64,000 nt of DNA, taken from Podarcis liolepis. Lineage: Eukaryota. Shown piece after piece: positions 7,300-37,320 of the stretch. The position numbers and the translations under genes were made by a program. The stretch lies in the NCBI GenBank assembly GCA_965112155.1, contig OZ218109.1; one strand, given 5' to 3'. The notes under the pieces were generated by a model. The model searched no databases, was not told the origin of the DNA, and saw only the letters and a program-made list of their open reading frames with translations. Position 1 is the first letter of the stretch, and each line of letters starts with the position of its first letter.

Positions 7300-7655
7300 A
7301 AGGTAAAGGGTAAAGGGACCCCTGACCATTAGGTCCAGTCATGACCGACTCTGGGGTTGCGGCGCTCATCTCGCTTTATTGGCCGACGGAGCCAGCGTAC
7401 AGCTTCCGGATCATGTGGCCAGCATGACTAAGCCGCTTCTGGCGAACCAGAGCAGCACACGGAAACGCCATTTACCTTCCCGCTGGAGCGGTACCTATTT
7501 ATCTACTTGCACTTTGATGTGCTTTTGAACTGCTGGGTTGGCAGGAGCAGGGACCGAGCAATGGGAGCTCACCCCGTCGCGGCGATTCAAACCACCGACC
7601 TTCTGATCGGCAAGTCCTAGGCTCTGTGGTTTAACCCACAGCGCCACCCGTGTCC
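7300..7655 (-). mobile_element. Sauria (Squam1-type) SINE, full length
   Basis: Reverse complement of GGACACGGGTGGCGCTGTGGGTTAAACC...GGGTCCCTTTACC; 13-bp TSD AACAGCAACCATA. Confidence 0.92.
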
Positions 7656-7942
7656 AACAGCAACCATACACAGACATTTAAAATGTCATCTGCAAAGTGG
7701 CTGTAACATGCCAGCCAGTCGCACTAGAATTACTTTAGTATGAGGCTTCAAACAGGTGGCCATATGAAACTGCCTTGTTCTGAGTTCAGCGTATTGTCTG
7801 CTGCACTGGCGTGCCTCTCCAGGGTCTCGGACAAAGGATGCTTTCCTACCTGTCCTGCCAGTGCCAGGGATGAAACCTGGGACCTTTCGCATGCGAAGCA
7901 CGTGCTTTAGTACTGACACTTTCACTTTGCACTTCACTAGCA

Positions 7943-9382
7943 CAGTGTTTCCCAACCTTTTTTGGGCAAAGGCACACTTGTTTCATGAAAAAAATCTCGA
8001 GGCACACCACCATTACAGCCCCGTGACGTCAGCGCGCAGCGTCACGCCGGGAGGGACATGAATTGCTAGCAAATTACATAATCACCTCCTTGAGGGCTGG
8101 CTCATCTTCTCCGAAGGCAGAACCCCATTAATTAACAGCACAGACTCACACCATAGCCAAGACGAGGGGGGAAAACCTCAGTCATGCACAGTCATGCACA
8201 TGTGGGGGCTAAATGAGGACGAAGACCGGGCAGAGAGCAGGGTTCAAATCACCCCACCTGGCCAGGACAATCCCTGGGTGCTCCCTTGGGCCACTCGCCT
8301 GACCCACCTCGCAGGGCTGTTGTTGCGAGGATAACATGGGGAGAACCACGCGCGCCCCCGGGAGCTCCTTGGAGGAGAAAGCGGGCGATGAATGCAATGC
8401 ACGAAATATATGAGAGGCGACCAGGTTTTGCAGGTGAGGGGCCCCCGCCAGCCTCCGCTTCCAACACCCGGCACAACGACGCTGAAGTTTCCCCCCGTGC
8501 TCGGCTCGGGGAGCAGCGCTGCTCCCCCCCCCGGCTCCCCTTCGCCCTCCCGGCTCTCTCTGCCGCCCACTGGGGACCCCCCTCACCTGCCAAGTCCGGA
8601 GCGCCGGTGAAAGTTGCATGCATGCACGCAGGGCGCCGCGTTGCCATTGCATTGCACTGCACTCCATGCAACGCCTGCACGCATGCATTGCCTTGCACGC
8701 CCGCCAAGGGGTCTCCCCGCGGTCCGATGCGTCCCCTCCGGCGCGGATGCAGCATTGCAAAAATAAAACCCCCCCGACGCAGCCCTACCTGGGGGGCAGC
8801 CTTCGCCTCCGCCGCTCCGCCTCCGTGGGGATCCCCGGGCTCCATCCTGCCGCCCGATCTCCGCGGGGGCGCAGGCAGGCTGTGCGGGGTCTGCGCGGAA
8901 GAGCCCCTGCCCGTCCGGCCGCCGCCGCTGCGCTCATTCCATGGCCGGGAGAAGAGCGCTTCAAACAAAACGTCCGGCCCGCCAGGCCACGCTGGGAAAC
9001 GTAGTTCGTGCACCCCGCGCGGGCGCGGAGCCCAAGGGCGAGGGGACTACGGATCCCGGCAGCCTCCACGCCGGGGATGGAGGGGGAGAGGCCGGGTGCA
9101 GGGATGGAGGGACGGGTGGGCGAGCGAGTGAGTGAGTGGCAGCCGCCAAGCCTTGGCCGAGAGCCAGGAAGGGCCTCCCTGGAGGAGGAGGAGGAGGAGG
9201 GAGGCGCAGAGCGGGAGGGAGGGAGGGAACCCCAGGGGTCATCTAGTGACGGCGCCCCAATCGAAAATTTGACTTTTTTTAAAAAAAAAAAATCTTTCGA
9301 TTTTTTTAATTTTTCCCGCGGCACACCAGGCAACATCTCGCGGCACACTAGTGTGCCGCGGAACAGTGGTTGGGAAACACTG
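7943..9382. mobile_element. Non-autonomous hAT (Buster/Charlie-type) DNA transposon carrying about 1.18 kb of GC-rich cargo (Pack-TIR-like)
   Basis: Perfect 15-bp TIR CAGTGTTTCCCAACC...GGTTGGGAAACACTG; perfect 8-bp TSD CACTAGCA (7935-7942, 9383-9390); subterminal GGCACAC repeats; no transposase ORF. Confidence 0.93.
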
Positions 9383-9583
9383 CACTAGCATATGACAGGC
9401 ATAGTCTTTGTTTCTAACAAGCTTTGATGGTATTAAGGAATTGGCTTTCAAATTGCAATATTGGGAACTAAAAGCACAAAAAGCAGACCCCCAAATTACC
9501 ATAGAATAACCAGGCATCAAGTCACTAAAGAAAATGCACCAGATCCCAAAGTTGGTAAGGTTCCACGGAAATTCATATTGTAC

Positions 9584-10096: not shown

Positions 10097-10181
10097 GTCC
10101 ACACGTTCCGAGGTCCACATTGGTGTGAATACTGTGCCAACTTCATGTGGGGACTCATTGCTCAGGGAGTCAGATGCTCAG
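10097..10181 (+). CDS. CHN2: CHN2 (beta-chimaerin) coding exon, first part of the C1 zinc finger: [28 protein letters not shown](D)
   Basis: Acceptor ttacag|GTC, donor TCAG|gtaatc, 85 bp. The translation is the chimaerin C1 domain and its phase joins the next exon. Upstream exons were not found in the window. Confidence 0.96.
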
Positions 10182-12413: not shown

Positions 12414-13091
12414 CAGTGTTTTTCAACCTTTTTTGGGCAAAGGCACACTTGTTTCATGAAAAAAATCACGAGGCACACCACCATTAGAAAATGTTAAAAA
12501 ATTTAACTCTGTGCCTATATTGACTATATATAAAGTAATTCTCTTGAATAGGAATCAAATAAACACAAATCAAATAAACACAAACACTTAACATCAGTGG
12601 TGAGATTCAAAAATTTTAGTAACCACTTCCGACATTCAACACTTAACATCAGTGGTGAGATTCAAAAATTTTAGTAACCACTTCCGACATTCAAGCATGG
12701 TTTAATATTTTTTTCTCTAATGGCAAACAAAAACGTTGCGGACCGTTCTCTGCTCAGCGGGGATCGATCCGCTGATCCCCGCTGAGCCAGCGGATGACAG
12801 CTCCGTCTCCGCACTGTGTGCGGAGAGGGAGATGTCAGAGCCCCGCTGCTCTCTATGGGGAATCGGATGAGAGCGGACCGCCTGTCCGCTCTCATCCGAT
12901 CCCATCTGATCTCATCCCCACCCAGGACGGATGGAAAATAGGGTGGACACAGTCCGGCACCCGCCTAGTGGGCGAAAATGTGACATTATTTTTTAAAAAA
13001 ATCTTTCGATTTTTTCAATTTTTCCAACGGCACACCAGGCAACATCTCGCGGCACACTAGTGTGCCGTGGAACAGTGGTTGAAAAACACTG
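12414..13091. mobile_element. Non-autonomous hAT element, same terminal family as 7943-9382 but with a different interior
   Basis: Perfect 15-bp TIR CAGTGTTTTTCAACC...GGTTGAAAAACACTG; perfect TSD TCCTAGAA (12406-12413, 13092-13099). Shares the first 73 bp and last ~125 bp with 7943-9382. Confidence 0.93.
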
Positions 13092-27849: not shown

Positions 27850-28860
27850 GGCCAATCGTTGTCCAGCTGCCCCTGCGAGAGGGACCAATCCCGTTTAGGG
27901 AGGAGGAGAAGGGGCGGGGTCGCTTCTCGAGGGCTCACCTGCACCTGCTTCCTTGTTGACTGAGCATCAGGTGCACCGCTCAGACCTTTCGAGGAAAGTG
28001 AGTCGGGCGGGTGGGATTCCCTCGCCACGAAAAGCGCGAGAGAGAGAGAGAGAGCTGGCTCCCTTACAGCGCGGCCGCTCTTTCCCAAGCGCCCCCCACC
28101 CCCCAGCTGCTCGCGGTCGTCCCTAGAGACGGCTAGCTGAAAGGCCGGCTTCCGACGGCGGATTGTTCTTCACCTGCGAAAGTTGGCGCTCCCTTTTGGA
28201 GCGGGCGGGCGCCGGAAGGAGGCCAAGTTCCCTGGCTCGCTCGCTCGCTCGCTCTCAAGAGTCAGCCTGTTGCTGCGGCAGCGAGTAGTTCCCTCGGAGA
28301 AGGAAGCCCAGGTAACGACGCTCTCGGCGAGAGGATGGACTGACTCCCTCCAGCACCGCGCCTGCTCTCAGGAGGAAGAAGAAAAAGAAGAAGAAGAGAC
28401 GCTCCTCCGGCGCACAGGTGAGAGCCCACGAGAACGCGCCTTCGCTCGCTTTCTCCTCAGCCGGCAGGTGCTCTCTTCAACAGGTGCCCGGCAAGAGCCC
28501 TCTCCGCCTGCGTCTCGCGCGCTCCCGACCTGGAGGGGTGGGGTGGGGGTGGGAATCTGCCCAGAGGCGCCCACCTGTCGCGCAGGCTAAGGGCGCGCGC
28601 GCTGCTCACCTTGCACGAGCGCACCTTGCATGCAGCATGAAAGGCAAGGGGGAGGGGCGCGCCTGAGAGGCAGGCGGGCGGGAGGGGGGCTTCCTCAGCC
28701 TGGTCAGGGGGAGGGGGAGCAGCAGGCAAAAGATGCTGCGTGGGCGGGCGCGGAGCTGGGCTGCCACCTCCTTCTTGTCAGCTGCCCTAAGTGTGGACGC
28801 AAGGGCGCTTCAGCGTGGCTGAGGCGGAGCAATTGGGGATTTTCTTGCCTTCGCACGGTG
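27850..28860 (+). promoter_or_regulatory. PRR15: CpG island, probable PRR15 promoter and non-coding first exon (candidate donors CAG|GTAACG at 28311/28312 and CAG|GTGAGA at 28417/28418)
   Basis: High GC/CpG, GC box GGGGCGGGG at 27911-27919, and plausible donors. It is the only CpG island between the CHN2 3' end and the PRR15 coding exon, which begins with a splice acceptor. Confidence 0.7.
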
Positions 28861-28948
28861 AGTTGCGTGGGACTTATTCCCCAAAAAGTGTGCATGGGAT
28901 TCTATCTATCTGTCTGTCTGTCTGTCTATCTGGTTTATAGATTTATTA

Positions 28949-29175
28949 CAGTGGTACCTCAGGTTACAGACGCTTCAGGTTACAGGCTCCGCTAACCCAG
29001 AAATAGTGCTTCAGGTTAAGAACTTTGCTTCAGGATGAGAACAGAAATCGTGCTGCGGCGGCGCGGCAGCAGCAGGAGGCCCCCATTAGCTAAAGTGGTG
29101 CTTCAGGTTAAGAACAGTTTCAGGTTAAGTACGGACCTCCAGAACGAATTAAGTACTTAACCCGAGGTACCACTG
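28949..29175. mobile_element. Tigger/pogo-like MITE (family also at 43218-43459 and 46329-46551)
   Basis: TIR CAGTGGTACCTC...GAGGTACCACTG, TA TSD, CAGGTTAAG repeats. Confidence 0.9.
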
Positions 29176-32100
29176 TACTATTTACAGATTTATTACCTTT
29201 ATCTTCCAAGGATCTCAAGGTGGTGTACATGGTTCTCCCTCCTCATTTCATCCTCACAAAAACCCCTGTGAGGTGAGGCTAAGGGATGGTGACTGGCCCC
29301 AAGGTCACCCAGTGAGCTTCATGGCTGAGTGGGGATTTGAACTCTGGCCTCCCAAGTGATAGTCCAGCACTCTTAATTTATTCCTGCATTGCAGGGGGTT
29401 GGACTAGATGACCCCTTGGGTCCCTTCCAGCCCTTGCGGTTCTACGATTCAATCCCAAAGACACGTGCCGTGAACTAACAGTGCCGTCCTGTACATGTTT
29501 GCTCTGAGGAAAGCCCTGTTGATTTCAGTGGGACTTGTTGCTAGCTAAGTGTGTACAAGATTGCAGTCCAAGGCTGCAATCCTGGGTCATATACTTGGCG
29601 GCAAGCCCCACTGAAGACATCTGGGCTTTCTTCTGATTAACGGTGCATGGGGTCAGTTTTATAATCCCGCTGAATGAACTTAACGGGAACTACGTCTGAG
29701 GGTCCCGGTACACTACTGTAATCTCTGAAGAGCTCTGAAATGGAGGGTTGCTATTTACACATGCACACACCCCTTCCCCCCCTTTCTGCATAATAGGCAG
29801 AAATCCAACAGGCTTTGTTTTTCCTCCAGTAGCTCTGGATTAAGTAACTGGTAAAGGACAATCCTAAAGAAGCATGTGTATAGCAGGCGATGCAGTTTGG
29901 GGATTATAGCTCTGCTATAAAAAAAAATCCCCAGTTTCACCCCACCTTTCAAATTAGCAAAATGTTGACAGCTAAGGGTTATCTAGCCATAAAAAATAAC
30001 CCCAGTTATAAAGTGCATTTTTCTGCTGTGTCCTCAGTTGCACCTGCTGAGTTGTTTCCTTGCACAGTACAGGTGCAACTTGGGCCCTCCAGCTATGACT
30101 TGCAACAAGCTTAATTAACAAACGCAACAAAGAGCTGCTACCTCAGTATCCAAGTCCTGCTGGAAAGGGGGCCGCCACTATTAGATAAATGTTGCAATTA
30201 ACCGTTCCAAAAAATAAAATAAAAAAAAGCTTAGTTTATCACTTTTACCTGCTGTTCGAAGGAACCTGCCTAATTCTGGTCTTTGCAGCAATTCAGTGAG
30301 TTGCATTCTGCTCGATGGATTCTACGTGTACAAAATATTACACGCTGTGGGTGAATTCCTGGCCCTAGTGCAACCAGTATGAATGTTCCATCATTCAACA
30401 GAGCAAGAATGTTTTTTTGCTTCACAAGCAAGCAGGAAACTTCTCAGAAATGAAAGCATGTTGAAGATTTAGGAGAGAGTTTCTAAAGTGCCTGGCCCTA
30501 CCTGTCATGATCATCAGTTTATGATGACAAACCATAGCACTGTTTGTGTGATAAGGCTGCGCAAAATCTGAAAGCTCCCTTGTAGGAAGGAGCAAGGTTT
30601 GCCTTTCATTTCCTTATCAAGCTGAAGGAACACCACCAGTGAACTTTTACAGAAACATTCATAGCTGGCTTGTGCAGCTGCATGGAGAAGAACCACTTAT
30701 GTAGTGACTCAGCCGATGTGTGCACAAAACAGAAAACCAGTGAGTTAAGTTTGCAGAACGGAAGGGGCATGCATGTGACTGTCTCCTCCTAGCAGTTCAA
30801 CTCCCAGGGTGAAGTTGTTCTAGGAAATTAATCCTCAAACTCCATGTCACAGAGCCATGATAGCTAAATTGAACCTCCATGTTCAGAGACAGTGTACTAT
30901 TATTTATTAACATCTCACCCTTTGTCATAAGATACCCCCAGGATGGGTATATATATATGTCTGACTTCCAGGTCCTGGGAGAGAGAGAAAAGGAGTAGCC
31001 ATTACTATTGTGATTTTTTTGAATATTTCCTTAAGGTATCTGCCTGTCAATTATTGGAACTAGATGGACAACTGCATTTAAGTCTGATCAGACAGTAGGC
31101 CACAATTAGGGAGCAAATGAGATCTACAGTACATGTATCTGGTGTCTGTATGCCTTCAAGGAATGCATTAAAAGAAGTTCCGAAAGTGCAGAAAAATGAG
31201 CTATATTTGTGCCATGCATTCAAAGGGAATGGAGAAGAGAAGAAACAATCCCAACAAAACACTGATAATTGGGTATATCTGATTATGCAGATATGCTGAA
31301 ACTAAATTATAGAATATATTTTTAATTCTGTCTCTTCTACTTTGAATCAAAATTTGCTCTGCACGCGAAGGCTAGGTATCAACTGGCTCACAATCCATCC
31401 TTATCCATGTTTACTTGGAAGTTGGGGTACTGAGTTCAGTGAAACTTATGCTGAACTGCAGTTTTCTGCTCACTCAGTTTGGGTGGTTTTGGCCTAAGAC
31501 CAAATCATTTTGTTCCCATTGTTTGCTGTGAACAACATACCAATGCAAAATTCACAAACCTGAAAAGTTAACATTTCAATCCCACTTAGCAAATTTTTGT
31601 AAGCTGATGGTGCTAAACTTTGCTGCAAATGTTCAACTATAGCTGGACTTGTCAGGAGGTACTGCTGGATCAGAAACCCAGTGTACTGGAAATACCACAA
31701 GTCTCTGTTTAAATCTTCAAACCAAAGAAGCTTTTGATGAATTGTGCTAAGCAACTGAATTCTTGGTTGCTTAGCCAGTCTTGGAAAGGTTTAACTACTG
31801 CTAATGACTTCATTAGTACAAAAGAAGGTTATGCAGTGTGGAAAGGTTTTAACTCTCCAAAGCATTCTAGATGAATTAAAGTTTGCATAGTTTCCTCACC
31901 AATGTGCTTAGGAATGGACACAGTTCCTATCCTATGAAATCTATCAACAGTAGCAGGTTGAGAACAGCTGAGTCCCGCTCAATCTTCTGTCTGTATCAAG
32001 GAGTAAGTCCCATTAAATTCAGTGGAACTTACTTGTGAGAAGACATGTGTAGGCTGCTGAAGCAAAGATGATAAGACACTGACAAATTGTCTTAATGCAA

Positions 32101-35246: not shown

Positions 35247-35822
35247 ATCTCCCTCTTGCTTGGAGGGGAAGGGTTATATCAATGTTAGTCCTACTCCGGG
35301 TAGAATTATAGAACTGTAGAGTTTGAAGGGACCACAAGGATCATCTAGTCCAACTCCTTGCAGTGCAGGCATCTTTCGCCCACAACCCTGAGATTAAGTC
35401 TCAGGCTCAAAGGAGCTATCCTTCAGGACCTCTATGAACCAAAACGTTTTTGGCGCAGCCTTTGTGGGGGGGGGGGGAGGAAAGCCCAGGCCTCAAGAAA
35501 GCCCTGGCGTCACAATTTGGAAGCGAGTAAATAATAAAATAAGATGGAAGTGGAGTCTCTGCGTATGGTTACGATGACCCTCTTAGACAGTTCCTCCAGC
35601 GGAGCCTACTAATTGCGCTCTGTGCGCCCGATGTCTCCCGCACCCCCTTAAATGTCTCCTTCCTACCGCGGACCCCAAGTCGGTGAGGGCTCCAGTTCCT
35701 GCCACTAAACAAGCCTCCCTCCTCTCTGTCCCCCCCTCCAGGCCACCGGCCCCGAGTGCAGCGCATCGCCCAGGACCCCCTGACCGGGAAGAGGCGCGCG
35801 GGCGCCTCCTGCCCTCCGGAAG

Positions 35823-36206
35823 ATGGCCGAAAGCGCCGGCACGGCCGCCCCCTCGACGGGGCCCGCGGCCAAAGGCGGCTCCTCGGGCGCCTGGTGGAAA
35901 TCGCTGACCAGCAGGAAAAAGCCCAAGGAATCGCCAGCGGCTGCGTGGCCTCCTCGGCAGGTGCCTGAGCCCTCGGAGATGCTCCCCGCCGCGCCCAGCC
36001 CCTCGGACTCTCAAGAGAACCAGCAGCCCAACTCGGGCAGCCGCCGGAACCTTAAGATCTCCCGCTCGGGCCGCTTCAAAGAGAAGCGGAAAGTGCGCGC
36101 CACGCTGCTGGCGGACAGTCCCCAGCAGCTCTTCGAAGGGGCGCCGGGAGCCGCAGCCGGGAACCCCGCCCCGGCGCGCCCCGCCGAAGAGACGCCGTGC
36201 CAGTGA
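35823..36206 (+). CDS. PRR15: Proline-rich protein 15 (127 aa), single coding exon; exon acceptor ctctctgtccccccctccag| at 35741/35742
   Basis: Family motifs WWKSLT-RKK and [22 protein letters not shown]; good Kozak context (aagATGG); located downstream of CHN2 as in mammals. Confidence 0.95.
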
Positions 36207-37320
36207 CCACGCCTCCCCGCCTGCCCCTGCCAGGCCTAGAGGAGGAGCTGCCTGTCTGATTTTGGGGAAAGGCGGCCTGGTTGCCGCCTCGTCTCCGGCC
36301 CAGGGGAGGAGCGTGTGTGCGCGCGCTCTGCTCGAGGAACTTGCGCGCGAGTTTGCAAAGCCTCTTTCGCCCTCGCCGAGGGGACAGATGATGGCGAGGC
36401 GTCCGCCTTAGTCGACCACGGGGGTCTCCTGTTTCACGGGGAGGGCCGCAGATCTCTGGAACAAGAGGAATATGCAATAAGGAAGAGACCCGCTGAAGTT
36501 CAGCTGCCCTTTGCGGTCATGAAATTAAAGTGTGTTCAGCGGGCAGTGTCCCCAACGAAATCGTCATTGTGGTTTATTTCACACCCACCACCACTTTTTG
36601 CAGAGAACCGCCAGTGCGCAATATGCTGCTGTATAGAATAATGATGATGATGATGATGGAGAATAAAAATTCTAGCGTGCAGCCCCAACTTAGTCCTATG
36701 TTCAGGTATTGCAGTAGATGTCCCCAATCGGAAACAAACACACAAACATGGTAAATAGCCCACTGGTGACCTATATCAATGTGCAGCCTTGATAAAACTT
36801 ACTGCTGCTCTGGGTCAGATGAAGATGTCTTGCTGTTGCCCAAACAACACTGGAGATCCATTAAGCAAGTACAGTACAGTAATGTCAGTTTTCCCTGAAG
36901 ATGCCAGGAGGGACGAGTTGGAGTGGCAGAGAGACCTGGTGCTGATAAAGTCAAGTGGAACATCTGTATATATATTTTTAAAAGGCACACCAAAATGCTG
37001 AGGTTTAAAATAAGTTGAGGGGGTTCCTGGGTGCCTTGTTTATGAGATTTCAGAACACATGTTAAAAACCTGTTTTTGAAGGTGACCTGCAATAGAGACC
37101 CCAGTTGTCTGCTCTTGCAAGTCACTGTCATGCAAATGGATTCAGAATCCCAATCTCCTGCACTAGCTGCTCCTGAGAAACAAAATTAAAAATGGAAATG
37201 TGGAATTTCATAATTTTATCCATTTTCAGCTGCTCCTGCAATAAAAGAGGCCATGCTATAAATTTTCACAAAGAACTAATTACTACAGTCCCAAATGAAT
37301 AACTTCATTTTAATAAAAAG
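36207..37320 (+). other. PRR15: Probable PRR15 3' UTR; AATAAA candidates at 36662, 37240 and 37312
   Basis: Sequence after the stop codon with several polyA hexamers; the site actually used is unknown. Confidence 0.45.

What the first reader, a model, noticed from the sequence alone, without database searches (positions are those of the whole stretch)
8789..9010. The cargo keeps a housekeeping-promoter motif and splice donor pointing antisense to CHN2
Seen in sequence: GAACTACGTTTCCCAGCGTGGCC on the - strand (~8985-9007) resembles the ACTACAnnTCCCAG motif. It lies about 140 bp upstream of the ATG at 8845 and is followed by an intact donor site. A CRE palindrome TGACGTCA lies near the left end (8024-8031). 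Known: ZNF143/THAP11 motifs mark strong, often bidirectional CpG-island promoters. Inference: the insertion could drive an antisense spliced RNA through CHN2. It could also drive a sense transcript starting ~700 bp before the C1 exon (10097), giving an SH2-less chimaerin similar to the natural beta1 isoform.
Basis: partly seen in the sequence, partly recalled or inferred. Interest (0 to 1): 0.7.

Follow-up and report, generated by a model that had tools for sequence, protein, structure and literature searches.

The report
Lizard transposon spreading KRBA1 gene start
A cut-and-paste jumping element in a lizard copied the likely promoter, first exon and splice signal of the gene KRBA1 and spread them to about a thousand places, one inside the gene CHN2, where the copy is likely a silent passenger rather than the source of a new CHN2 form.

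Summary
The motif, ATG and donor are real. They are the 5' end of KRBA1: likely promoter, coding exon 1, its true donor and part of intron 1. A 1,440-bp non-autonomous hAT captured it. I found the TIR-less parent on the same chromosome, and annotated lacertid KRBA1 proteins begin with this exon. About 1,000 copies exist, so these are family traits, not a CHN2 adaptation. The CRE belongs to the transposon end, not the cargo. The beta1 idea fails: the native beta1-type first exon lies 10.6 kb upstream, and a transcript from the element would lack C1 positions 1-4. CpG transitions run 13-fold above other transitions in the copies, with no protection around the motif, which points to germline methylation. 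The parent shows the same decay, so this does not prove somatic silence. RNA from a related organism could not test this copy. The more notable result is the family: Tan et al. found 4 multicopy Pack-TIRs in 100 animal genomes, and the same hAT ends carry at least four other CpG-island-like interiors. This scan noted similar lizard Pack-hATs (CENPW, HCN1) on other DNA.

The parts
7935..7942 (+). Left target-site duplication CACTAGCA
7943..9382 (.). Non-autonomous hAT (Pack-TIR) element, 1,440 bp, with 15-bp terminal inverted repeats at 7943-7957 and 9368-9382
7943..8057 (+). Transposon left end, including the CRE palindrome 8024-8031; shared with 1,697 elements that continue into other interiors
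8063..9247 (-). Captured KRBA1 5' end (parent G000:C13:2124342-2125412 plus 2127428-2127556; about 2 kb of intron 1 deleted near 8200; 5-nt filler at 8058-8062)
8063..8788 (-). KRBA1 intron 1 fragment; includes an old interspersed-repeat remnant at 8238-8381 (69% to window 29197-29346)
8783..8791 (-). KRBA1 exon 1 splice donor CAG|GTAGGG, phase 0
8789..8845 (-). KRBA1 coding exon 1, 19 codons; 17 of 19 residues identical to the start of Podarcis lilfordi KRBA1 (P0009)
8992..9005 (-). ZNF143/THAP11 (SBS2-like) motif ACTACGTTTCCCAG, identical in the parent
9046..9058 (+). Second, weaker SBS-like site in the opposite orientation
9104..9127 (+). Cryptic sense-strand ATG (9104) and weak donor (after 9127), in phase with the CHN2 exon at 10097; untested. 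ATG 9077 is a CpG-decay product (36 of 40 copies have ACG)
9248..9382 (+). Transposon right end (shared with the window's sister element from 9262)
9383..9390 (+). Right target-site duplication CACTAGCA
10097..10181 (+). CHN2 exon encoding C1 domain profile positions 5-32; positions 1-4 are on the upstream beta1-type exon

Best explanation
The feature is the captured 5' end of the KRAB-domain gene KRBA1 (likely promoter, coding exon 1, its donor and part of intron 1), carried by a roughly 1,000-copy non-autonomous hAT transposon, and the copy in the CHN2 intron is likely a methylated passenger. Shown: the capture, the parent, the copy number, the transposition hallmarks, and retention of motif, ATG and donor across the family. 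Inferred: a hAT copy picked up about 3.2 kb of the KRBA1 5' region (or 1.2 kb with a deletion at capture) during repair or template switching; a transposase acting in trans then amplified it in a recent burst (copies differ by about 0.7% from their majority at non-CpG sites); the motif and donor survive because the family is young, not through selection at CHN2; and the copies are methylated in the germline.
For: Parent without TIRs, 93-96% identical to 8063-9247. A KRAB exon lies 17 kb downstream of it, with 95-98% hits to lacertid KRBA1. P. lilfordi KRBA1 starts with exactly the parent's 19 residues. 1,037 exact matches to a CpG-free cargo 23-mer, parent included. Of the first 40 such places on C1, 40 are element copies, 38 are full length and 38 have perfect 8-bp TSDs. 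Motif, ATG and donor are all intact in 31 of 40, with no significant constraint on them: 2/943 vs 241/37,245 non-CpG changes, p=0.14. CpG transitions 309/7,767 vs 62/20,512 non-CpG C/G transitions (13x) in the 40 copies; window copy 9/200 vs 5/526, p=0.004. Decay is highest, not lowest, around the motif (102/1,725 vs 210/6,202). Family-wide RNA depth over the cargo is low, without an exon peak or start/end peaks.
Against: The parent, presumably a working promoter, shows the same CpG decay (12/199 vs 3/524), so decay does not by itself show somatic silence. Within 8789-9070 the window copy's CpG excess is not significant (4/82 vs 4/135, p=0.48). Some CpG changes are shared between copies and are not independent events. 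The RNA runs came from another organism label whose DNA run lacks several of this copy's private letters, and the joint and loose-end tables were truncated. A captured promoter of the same anatomy drives transcripts in bats (PMC4778049, passages), though only 3 had a start inside the insertion.
Confidence: 0.7

Rival explanations
1. The CHN2 copy is still active in some tissue and makes an antisense RNA from the KRBA1 promoter. It would splice from 8789/8788 to a cryptic acceptor or end at a nearby polyA signal, and could interfere with the beta1-type first exon about 11.5 kb downstream on that strand.
For: Motif, ATG and donor are intact and the motif is identical to the parent's. CpG o/e is still about 0.9-1.0 at 8601-9000. 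HelibatN3 with the NUBPL promoter and donor traps exons in cells and starts 3 bat transcripts (PMC4778049, passages). In one search, 2 of 12 reads at 8803 and 1 of 9 at 8914 did not show the family letter.
Against: Family-wide CpG decay with no protection at the motif. In X23, 0 of 11, 6, 6, 5 and 3 reads showed this copy's letter at 8473, 8610, 8627, 8973 and 9065. A minus-strand AATAAA lies 1.4 kb past the donor, so an unspliced RNA might end early.
Confidence: 0.17
2. The element drives a sense transcript that splices into the exon at 10097. It would give an SH2-less chimaerin, but one missing C1 positions 1-4, so not a beta1 equivalent.
For: A second SBS-like site on the + strand (9046-9058). 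ATG 9104 and a weak donor after 9127 are in phase with 10097; two further candidate donors lie at 9554 and 9599 in the flank (my own rough donor score).
Against: The exon starts at C1 profile position 5, and HNFK is on the upstream exon. The native beta1-type first exon is present and upstream of the element. The donors score 2.8-4.0 against 5.2 for the KRBA1 donor. In the parent this direction is the promoter's upstream side.
Confidence: 0.05
3. The CpG-loss excess reflects a general non-equilibrium GC decline or unpurged polymorphism rather than methylation, so it says nothing on the state of these copies.
For: The parent decays as fast as the copies. I had no outgroup DNA and no non-donor island as a control.
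Against: The excess is specific to CpG: non-CpG C/G transitions are 12-13 times rarer in two separate families. A general GC decline would not produce that.
Confidence: 0.08

Closest known systems
Multicopy Pack-TIRs of animals, e.g. Pack-hAT-N8_XT with the CAPSL 5' UTR (Tan et al. 2021, PMC8277862; passages read, supplements not opened)
   Same: hAT ends around a host 5' fragment, a TIR-free parent, distinct TSDs from repeated transposition, GC-rich cargo.
   Different: They report four multicopy cases among 370 Pack-TIRs in 100 genomes (three frog, one alligator), and their example has three copies. This family has about 1,000 copies, and the cargo includes the upstream region, a coding exon and a donor.
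HelibatN3, the bat Helitron with the NUBPL promoter, first exon and donor (PMC4224331 and PMC4778049; passages read)
   Same: Promoter, short coding exon, donor and part of intron 1 amplified to about a thousand copies; several sister families carry other promoters; exon-trap anatomy.
   Different: A rolling-circle Helitron, not a cut-and-paste TIR element. Activity was shown for HelibatN3 and is untested here.
ZNF143/THAP11 SBS2 promoter element (PMC3627581; passages read)
   Same: ACTACnnnTCCCAG core upstream of a KRAB-family gene; 114 KRAB-ZNF genes are listed as ZNF143 targets in human.
   Different: One mismatch (G for A) in the ACTACA half, creating a CpG. Binding was not tested. THAP11 represses through SBS2.
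beta1-chimaerin (PMC7430845; passages read)
   Same: Both would lack the SH2 domain.
   Different: beta1 comes from its own first exon, present here 10.6 kb upstream of the element and carrying C1 positions 1-4. An element-born transcript would lack them.
Epigenetic conflict between capturing TEs and donor genes in maize (10.1101/777037; abstract and outline read)
   Same: The donor of a captured fragment shows signs of methylation (here 12 CpG losses against 1 gain).
   Different: Shown with siRNA and methylation data in a plant; here only inferred from substitutions, without a control island.

Membership tests
Non-autonomous hAT element | Short terminal inverted repeats | tested here: met
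   15-bp perfect TIR
Non-autonomous hAT element | 8-bp target-site duplication | tested here: met
   38 of 40 unselected copies perfect; 27 of 30 best hits, window copy included. TA at positions 4-5 in 38 of 40, which fits the Buster/Charlie branch (recalled)
Non-autonomous hAT element | No transposase; an autonomous partner with the same ends exists | tested here: inconclusive
   1.44 kb is filled by ends and host cargo; I did not search for the autonomous partner
Multicopy Pack-TIR (Tan et al. 2021) | Internal sequence has a parental copy not associated with the TE | tested here: met
   L041 matches element positions 121-249 and 259-1305 and neither end
Multicopy Pack-TIR (Tan et al. 2021) | Repeated transposition shown by distinct TSDs on several chromosomes | tested here: met
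ZNF143/THAP11 SBS2 promoter | ACTACANNTCCCA core near a gene 5' end | tested here: inconclusive
   12 of 13 letters match; above chance (0 of 2,000 shuffles); same in the KRBA1 parent
ZNF143/THAP11 SBS2 promoter | Occupancy, open unmethylated chromatin, transcription start | not testable with these tools
   No ChIP, ATAC or methylation data; indirect CpG decay argues against germline protection
Bidirectional (head-to-head, <1 kb) promoter | Two gene starts within 1 kb on opposite strands at the parent locus | tested here: not met
   The divergent zinc-finger neighbour's GC-rich 5' region is about 2.8 kb away; starts inferred from sequence, not mapped
beta1-chimaerin-type isoform | Lacks SH2 | tested here: met
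   SH2 exons lie about 46-48 kb upstream of the window start
beta1-chimaerin-type isoform | Complete C1 domain | tested here: not met
   Exon 10097 begins at C1 profile position 5; HNFK is on the exon upstream of the element

The most novel reading that the evidence does not exclude
One lacertid hAT lineage is a serial CpG-island thief. It has captured the 5' ends of at least five host loci and amplified them to tens to a thousand copies each, the cut-and-paste counterpart of bat promoter-carrying Helitrons. Amplifying the KRBA1 promoter turned silencing back on the donor in trans, so a KRAB-family gene's own island is now losing CpGs, while a minority of copies act as new promoters or exon traps.
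Probability: 0.2. Interest if true: 0.8.

Novelty: new variant of a known kind. Interest (0 to 1): 0.5.

Why it matters
For CHN2 itself it probably matters little. The family matters more. Multicopy Pack-TIRs were rare and low-copy in the one broad animal survey read here, yet this genome holds about 1,000 dispersed copies of one gene's promoter-exon-donor module, plus sister families with other CpG-island-like interiors. A thousand near-identical promoters in different neighbourhoods, with a known parent, make two questions directly testable in a vertebrate: when a transplanted CpG island stays unmethylated and active, and whether gene capture makes the host silence the donor gene, as reported in maize.

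Tried and rejected
Protein searches with two minus-strand frames of the cargo found nothing at E<=10; the short low-complexity exon is below their reach, and the parent was found by a genome pattern instead. A phmmer search of 1.84 billion representatives with the parent's 30-residue exon frame, meant to reveal chimeric gene models, returned 0 hits, not even KRBA1, so it is uninformative. BLASTP of the 19-mer against P0003 failed on composition; a plain local alignment beat all 200 shuffles for 5 of 5 proteins. Run search: no RNA holder listed on record as RNA; this is not evidence either way. The CHN2 exon had no RNA depth in X23 or X21, which may be tissue or the tool's filter, so junctions into 10097 were not tested, and the stretch laid did not reach the next CHN2 exon. 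No empty-site joint appeared among the rows shown (387 not shown). Parents of three sister interiors were sought with four patterns and one DNA search and not found, so their host origin is inferred from composition only. The Atlas gave no hit for an ORF in the L059 interior. Rejected: the cargo as the transposon's own internal promoter (a TIR-free host parent exists); the CRE as part of the captured promoter; the ~200-codon read-through ORF from ATG 8845 as a gene (it runs through the intron). Literature searches found no paper on this family; they cover open-licence PMC and bioRxiv only, no repeat library was available, and the supplements of PMC8277862 were not opened and may list lizard cases.

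Full report
Observation. The minus-strand motif ACTACGTTTCCCAG lies at 8992-9005, 147 bp from an ATG at 8845 that opens a 19-codon exon ending CAG|GTAGGG at 8789/8788; TGACGTCA is at 8024-8031. The motif pattern ACTACRnnTCCCAG occurs once in the cargo and in 0 of 2,000 dinucleotide shuffles; a looser form occurs 7 times in the window. The host gene is CHN2: the exon at 10097-10181 is 28 of 28 identical to beta2-chimaerin 1xa6, and further exons follow on the + strand.

The element. All these features sit in a 1,440-bp element (7943-9382) with 15-bp inverted ends and an 8-bp target duplication. A search of the own genome scored 40 of 1,117 candidates, all 96-100% identical over 561 bp. A motif-containing 22-mer has 411 exact matches, and a CpG-free cargo 23-mer has 1,037, parent included. 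I fetched the first 40 places of that list on contig C1. All 40 are element copies, 38 full length, 38 with a perfect 8-bp duplication and 38 with TA at positions 4-5. This is a young non-autonomous hAT; assignment to the Buster/Charlie branch rests on a recalled target preference. Motif, ATG and donor are all intact in 31 of 40 copies and show no significant constraint (p=0.14). Their survival at CHN2 needs no special explanation.

The source of the cargo. A pattern demanding cargo sequence without the transposon letter beside it gave 6 places, 2 with non-element flanks. One matched for only 19 bases. The other, L041 on the same contig at 2.12 Mb, matches element positions 259-1305 at 93% and 121-249 at 96%, with about 2 kb between the two pieces and neither transposon end. 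The cargo is 8063-9247. Seventeen kb downstream lies a KRAB exon, whose best hits are KRBA1 of Podarcis, Zootoca and Lacerta at 95-98%. The P. lilfordi protein starts with exactly the parent's 19 residues and continues into the next exon; 10 of 11 listed P. muralis isoforms start with the homologous exon. So the ATG and donor are the true KRBA1 exon 1, the genome is that of a lacertid lizard, and the upstream region with the motif is very likely its promoter (the start site was not mapped). ZNF143 targets include 114 human KRAB-ZNF genes, and SBS2 promoters have lower Pol II and H3K4me3 than SBS1 promoters (PMC3627581, passages). The CRE is not from KRBA1: it is absent from the parent and present in 5 of 6 sister elements that share only the first 115 bp.

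The beta1 idea. About 2.7 kb before the window start lies an 83-codon Met-led exon ending in HNFK and a donor, and the SH2 exons lie 46-48 kb upstream. [quoted passage not shown] The element lies downstream of that exon. The exon at 10097 starts at position 5 of the Pfam C1 profile, so a transcript born in the element would lose positions 1-4, including the first histidine (a zinc ligand, from established knowledge of C1 domains). An in-frame sense splice is formally possible from ATG 9104 and a weak donor after 9127, but its product would not be beta1-like.

Is it active? In the 40 unselected copies, CpG transitions are 309/7,767 against 62/20,512 at other C/G sites (13-fold), and 13.5-fold in 8789-9070. 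The window copy has 9/200 against 5/526 over the cargo (p=0.004) but 4/82 against 4/135 in the core (p=0.48). The 30 best hits gave 12-fold. Decay is highest around the motif, with the caveat that some changes are inherited between copies. This is the signature of germline methylation. Against over-reading it: the parent has 12/199 against 3/524, and 12 CpG losses against 1 gain relative to the family majority (binomial p=0.003), though only 4/81 against 2/133 in the core (p=0.20). Either island shores and this promoter are methylated in the germline anyway, or the donor is being hit in trans, as reported for maize donors (10.1101/777037, abstract). I had no control island. Reads from two RNA runs (12 and 6 in 100 of each run read) of a related organism gave low, flat depth over the cargo (about 4-26 in X23, for the family and parent together) and no start or end peaks. 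That organism's DNA run lacks several of this copy's private letters, 3 reads at two private positions did not show the family letter, and the joint table was truncated. This copy was therefore not tested at RNA level.

The wider family. 1,697 places share the left end but continue differently. The first six fetched carry four other interiors, all with perfect target duplications, 62-74% GC and CpG o/e 0.82-0.97. One of these interiors has at least 40 copies; 30 of 30 fetched have perfect duplications and 12-fold CpG decay. Their parents were not found, so host origin is inferred.

Comparison and verdict. By the features tested, this is a multicopy Pack-TIR. Tan et al. (PMC8277862, passages) found four multicopy cases among 370, and their example has three copies; 'lizard' and 'anole' do not occur in the main text, and the supplements were not opened. 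In anatomy and copy number it works like the bat Helitron HelibatN3 with the NUBPL promoter (PMC4224331, PMC4778049, passages), but it is not a Helitron and its activity is unshown. Searches found no paper on this family. Earlier notes of this scan describe lizard Pack-hATs with CENPW and HCN1 starts in other genomes (unchecked). Verdict: observation confirmed; the cargo is identified as the KRBA1 5' end; likely a silent passenger at CHN2 (0.7); antisense activity possible (0.17); sense product unlikely and not beta1-like (0.05). Interest 0.5, resting on the family rather than on CHN2.

Noticed in passing
window 12414-13091: A second element with the same hAT ends (8-bp duplication TCCTAGAA) in the next CHN2 intron, with a different, less GC-rich interior (45% GC).
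   Followed up: partly
L055-L060 (G000:C1): Sister elements with four other CpG-island-like interiors; L056 and L057 contain reverse-strand donor-like sites, and L058/L059 hold a Gln/Pro/Ala-rich open frame. Parents not found.
   Followed up: partly
L056, element positions ~222-241: The interior begins with three CCCTAA telomere-type repeats at the junction with the transposon end, possibly repair filler.
   Followed up: no
L041:3342-4412 (KRBA1 parent): The donor locus has lost 12 CpGs and gained 1 relative to the family majority; unexplained without an outgroup.
   Followed up: partly
L041:700-1000 and L047: A divergent C2H2 zinc-finger gene with its own GC-rich 5' region and GCGCATGCGC palindromes (NRF1-like, recalled); a GIMAP-like ORF lies further upstream (label recalled).
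   Followed up: no
window 7309-7655: A very high-copy short interspersed repeat just left of the element (likely Sauria SINE, label recalled); it supplies the first minus-strand AATAAA after the donor.
   Followed up: no
window 3231, 3280, 22709, 43736, 45294: ACTACA..TCCCA motifs inside what looks like a common lizard repeat (followed by TCATCCCT-like letters), so a repeat may spread perfect THAP11-type cores in this genome.
   Followed up: no
window 28001-29000 and 35501-36500: Two native CpG islands without these hAT ends; the second holds a short Pro/Ala-rich ORF, probably PRR15 (recalled from synteny).
   Followed up: partly
L042 (G000:C12:62431154-62432552): A family copy inserted directly beside a strong native CpG island (o/e about 1.1); a good candidate for a copy that escapes methylation.
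   Followed up: no
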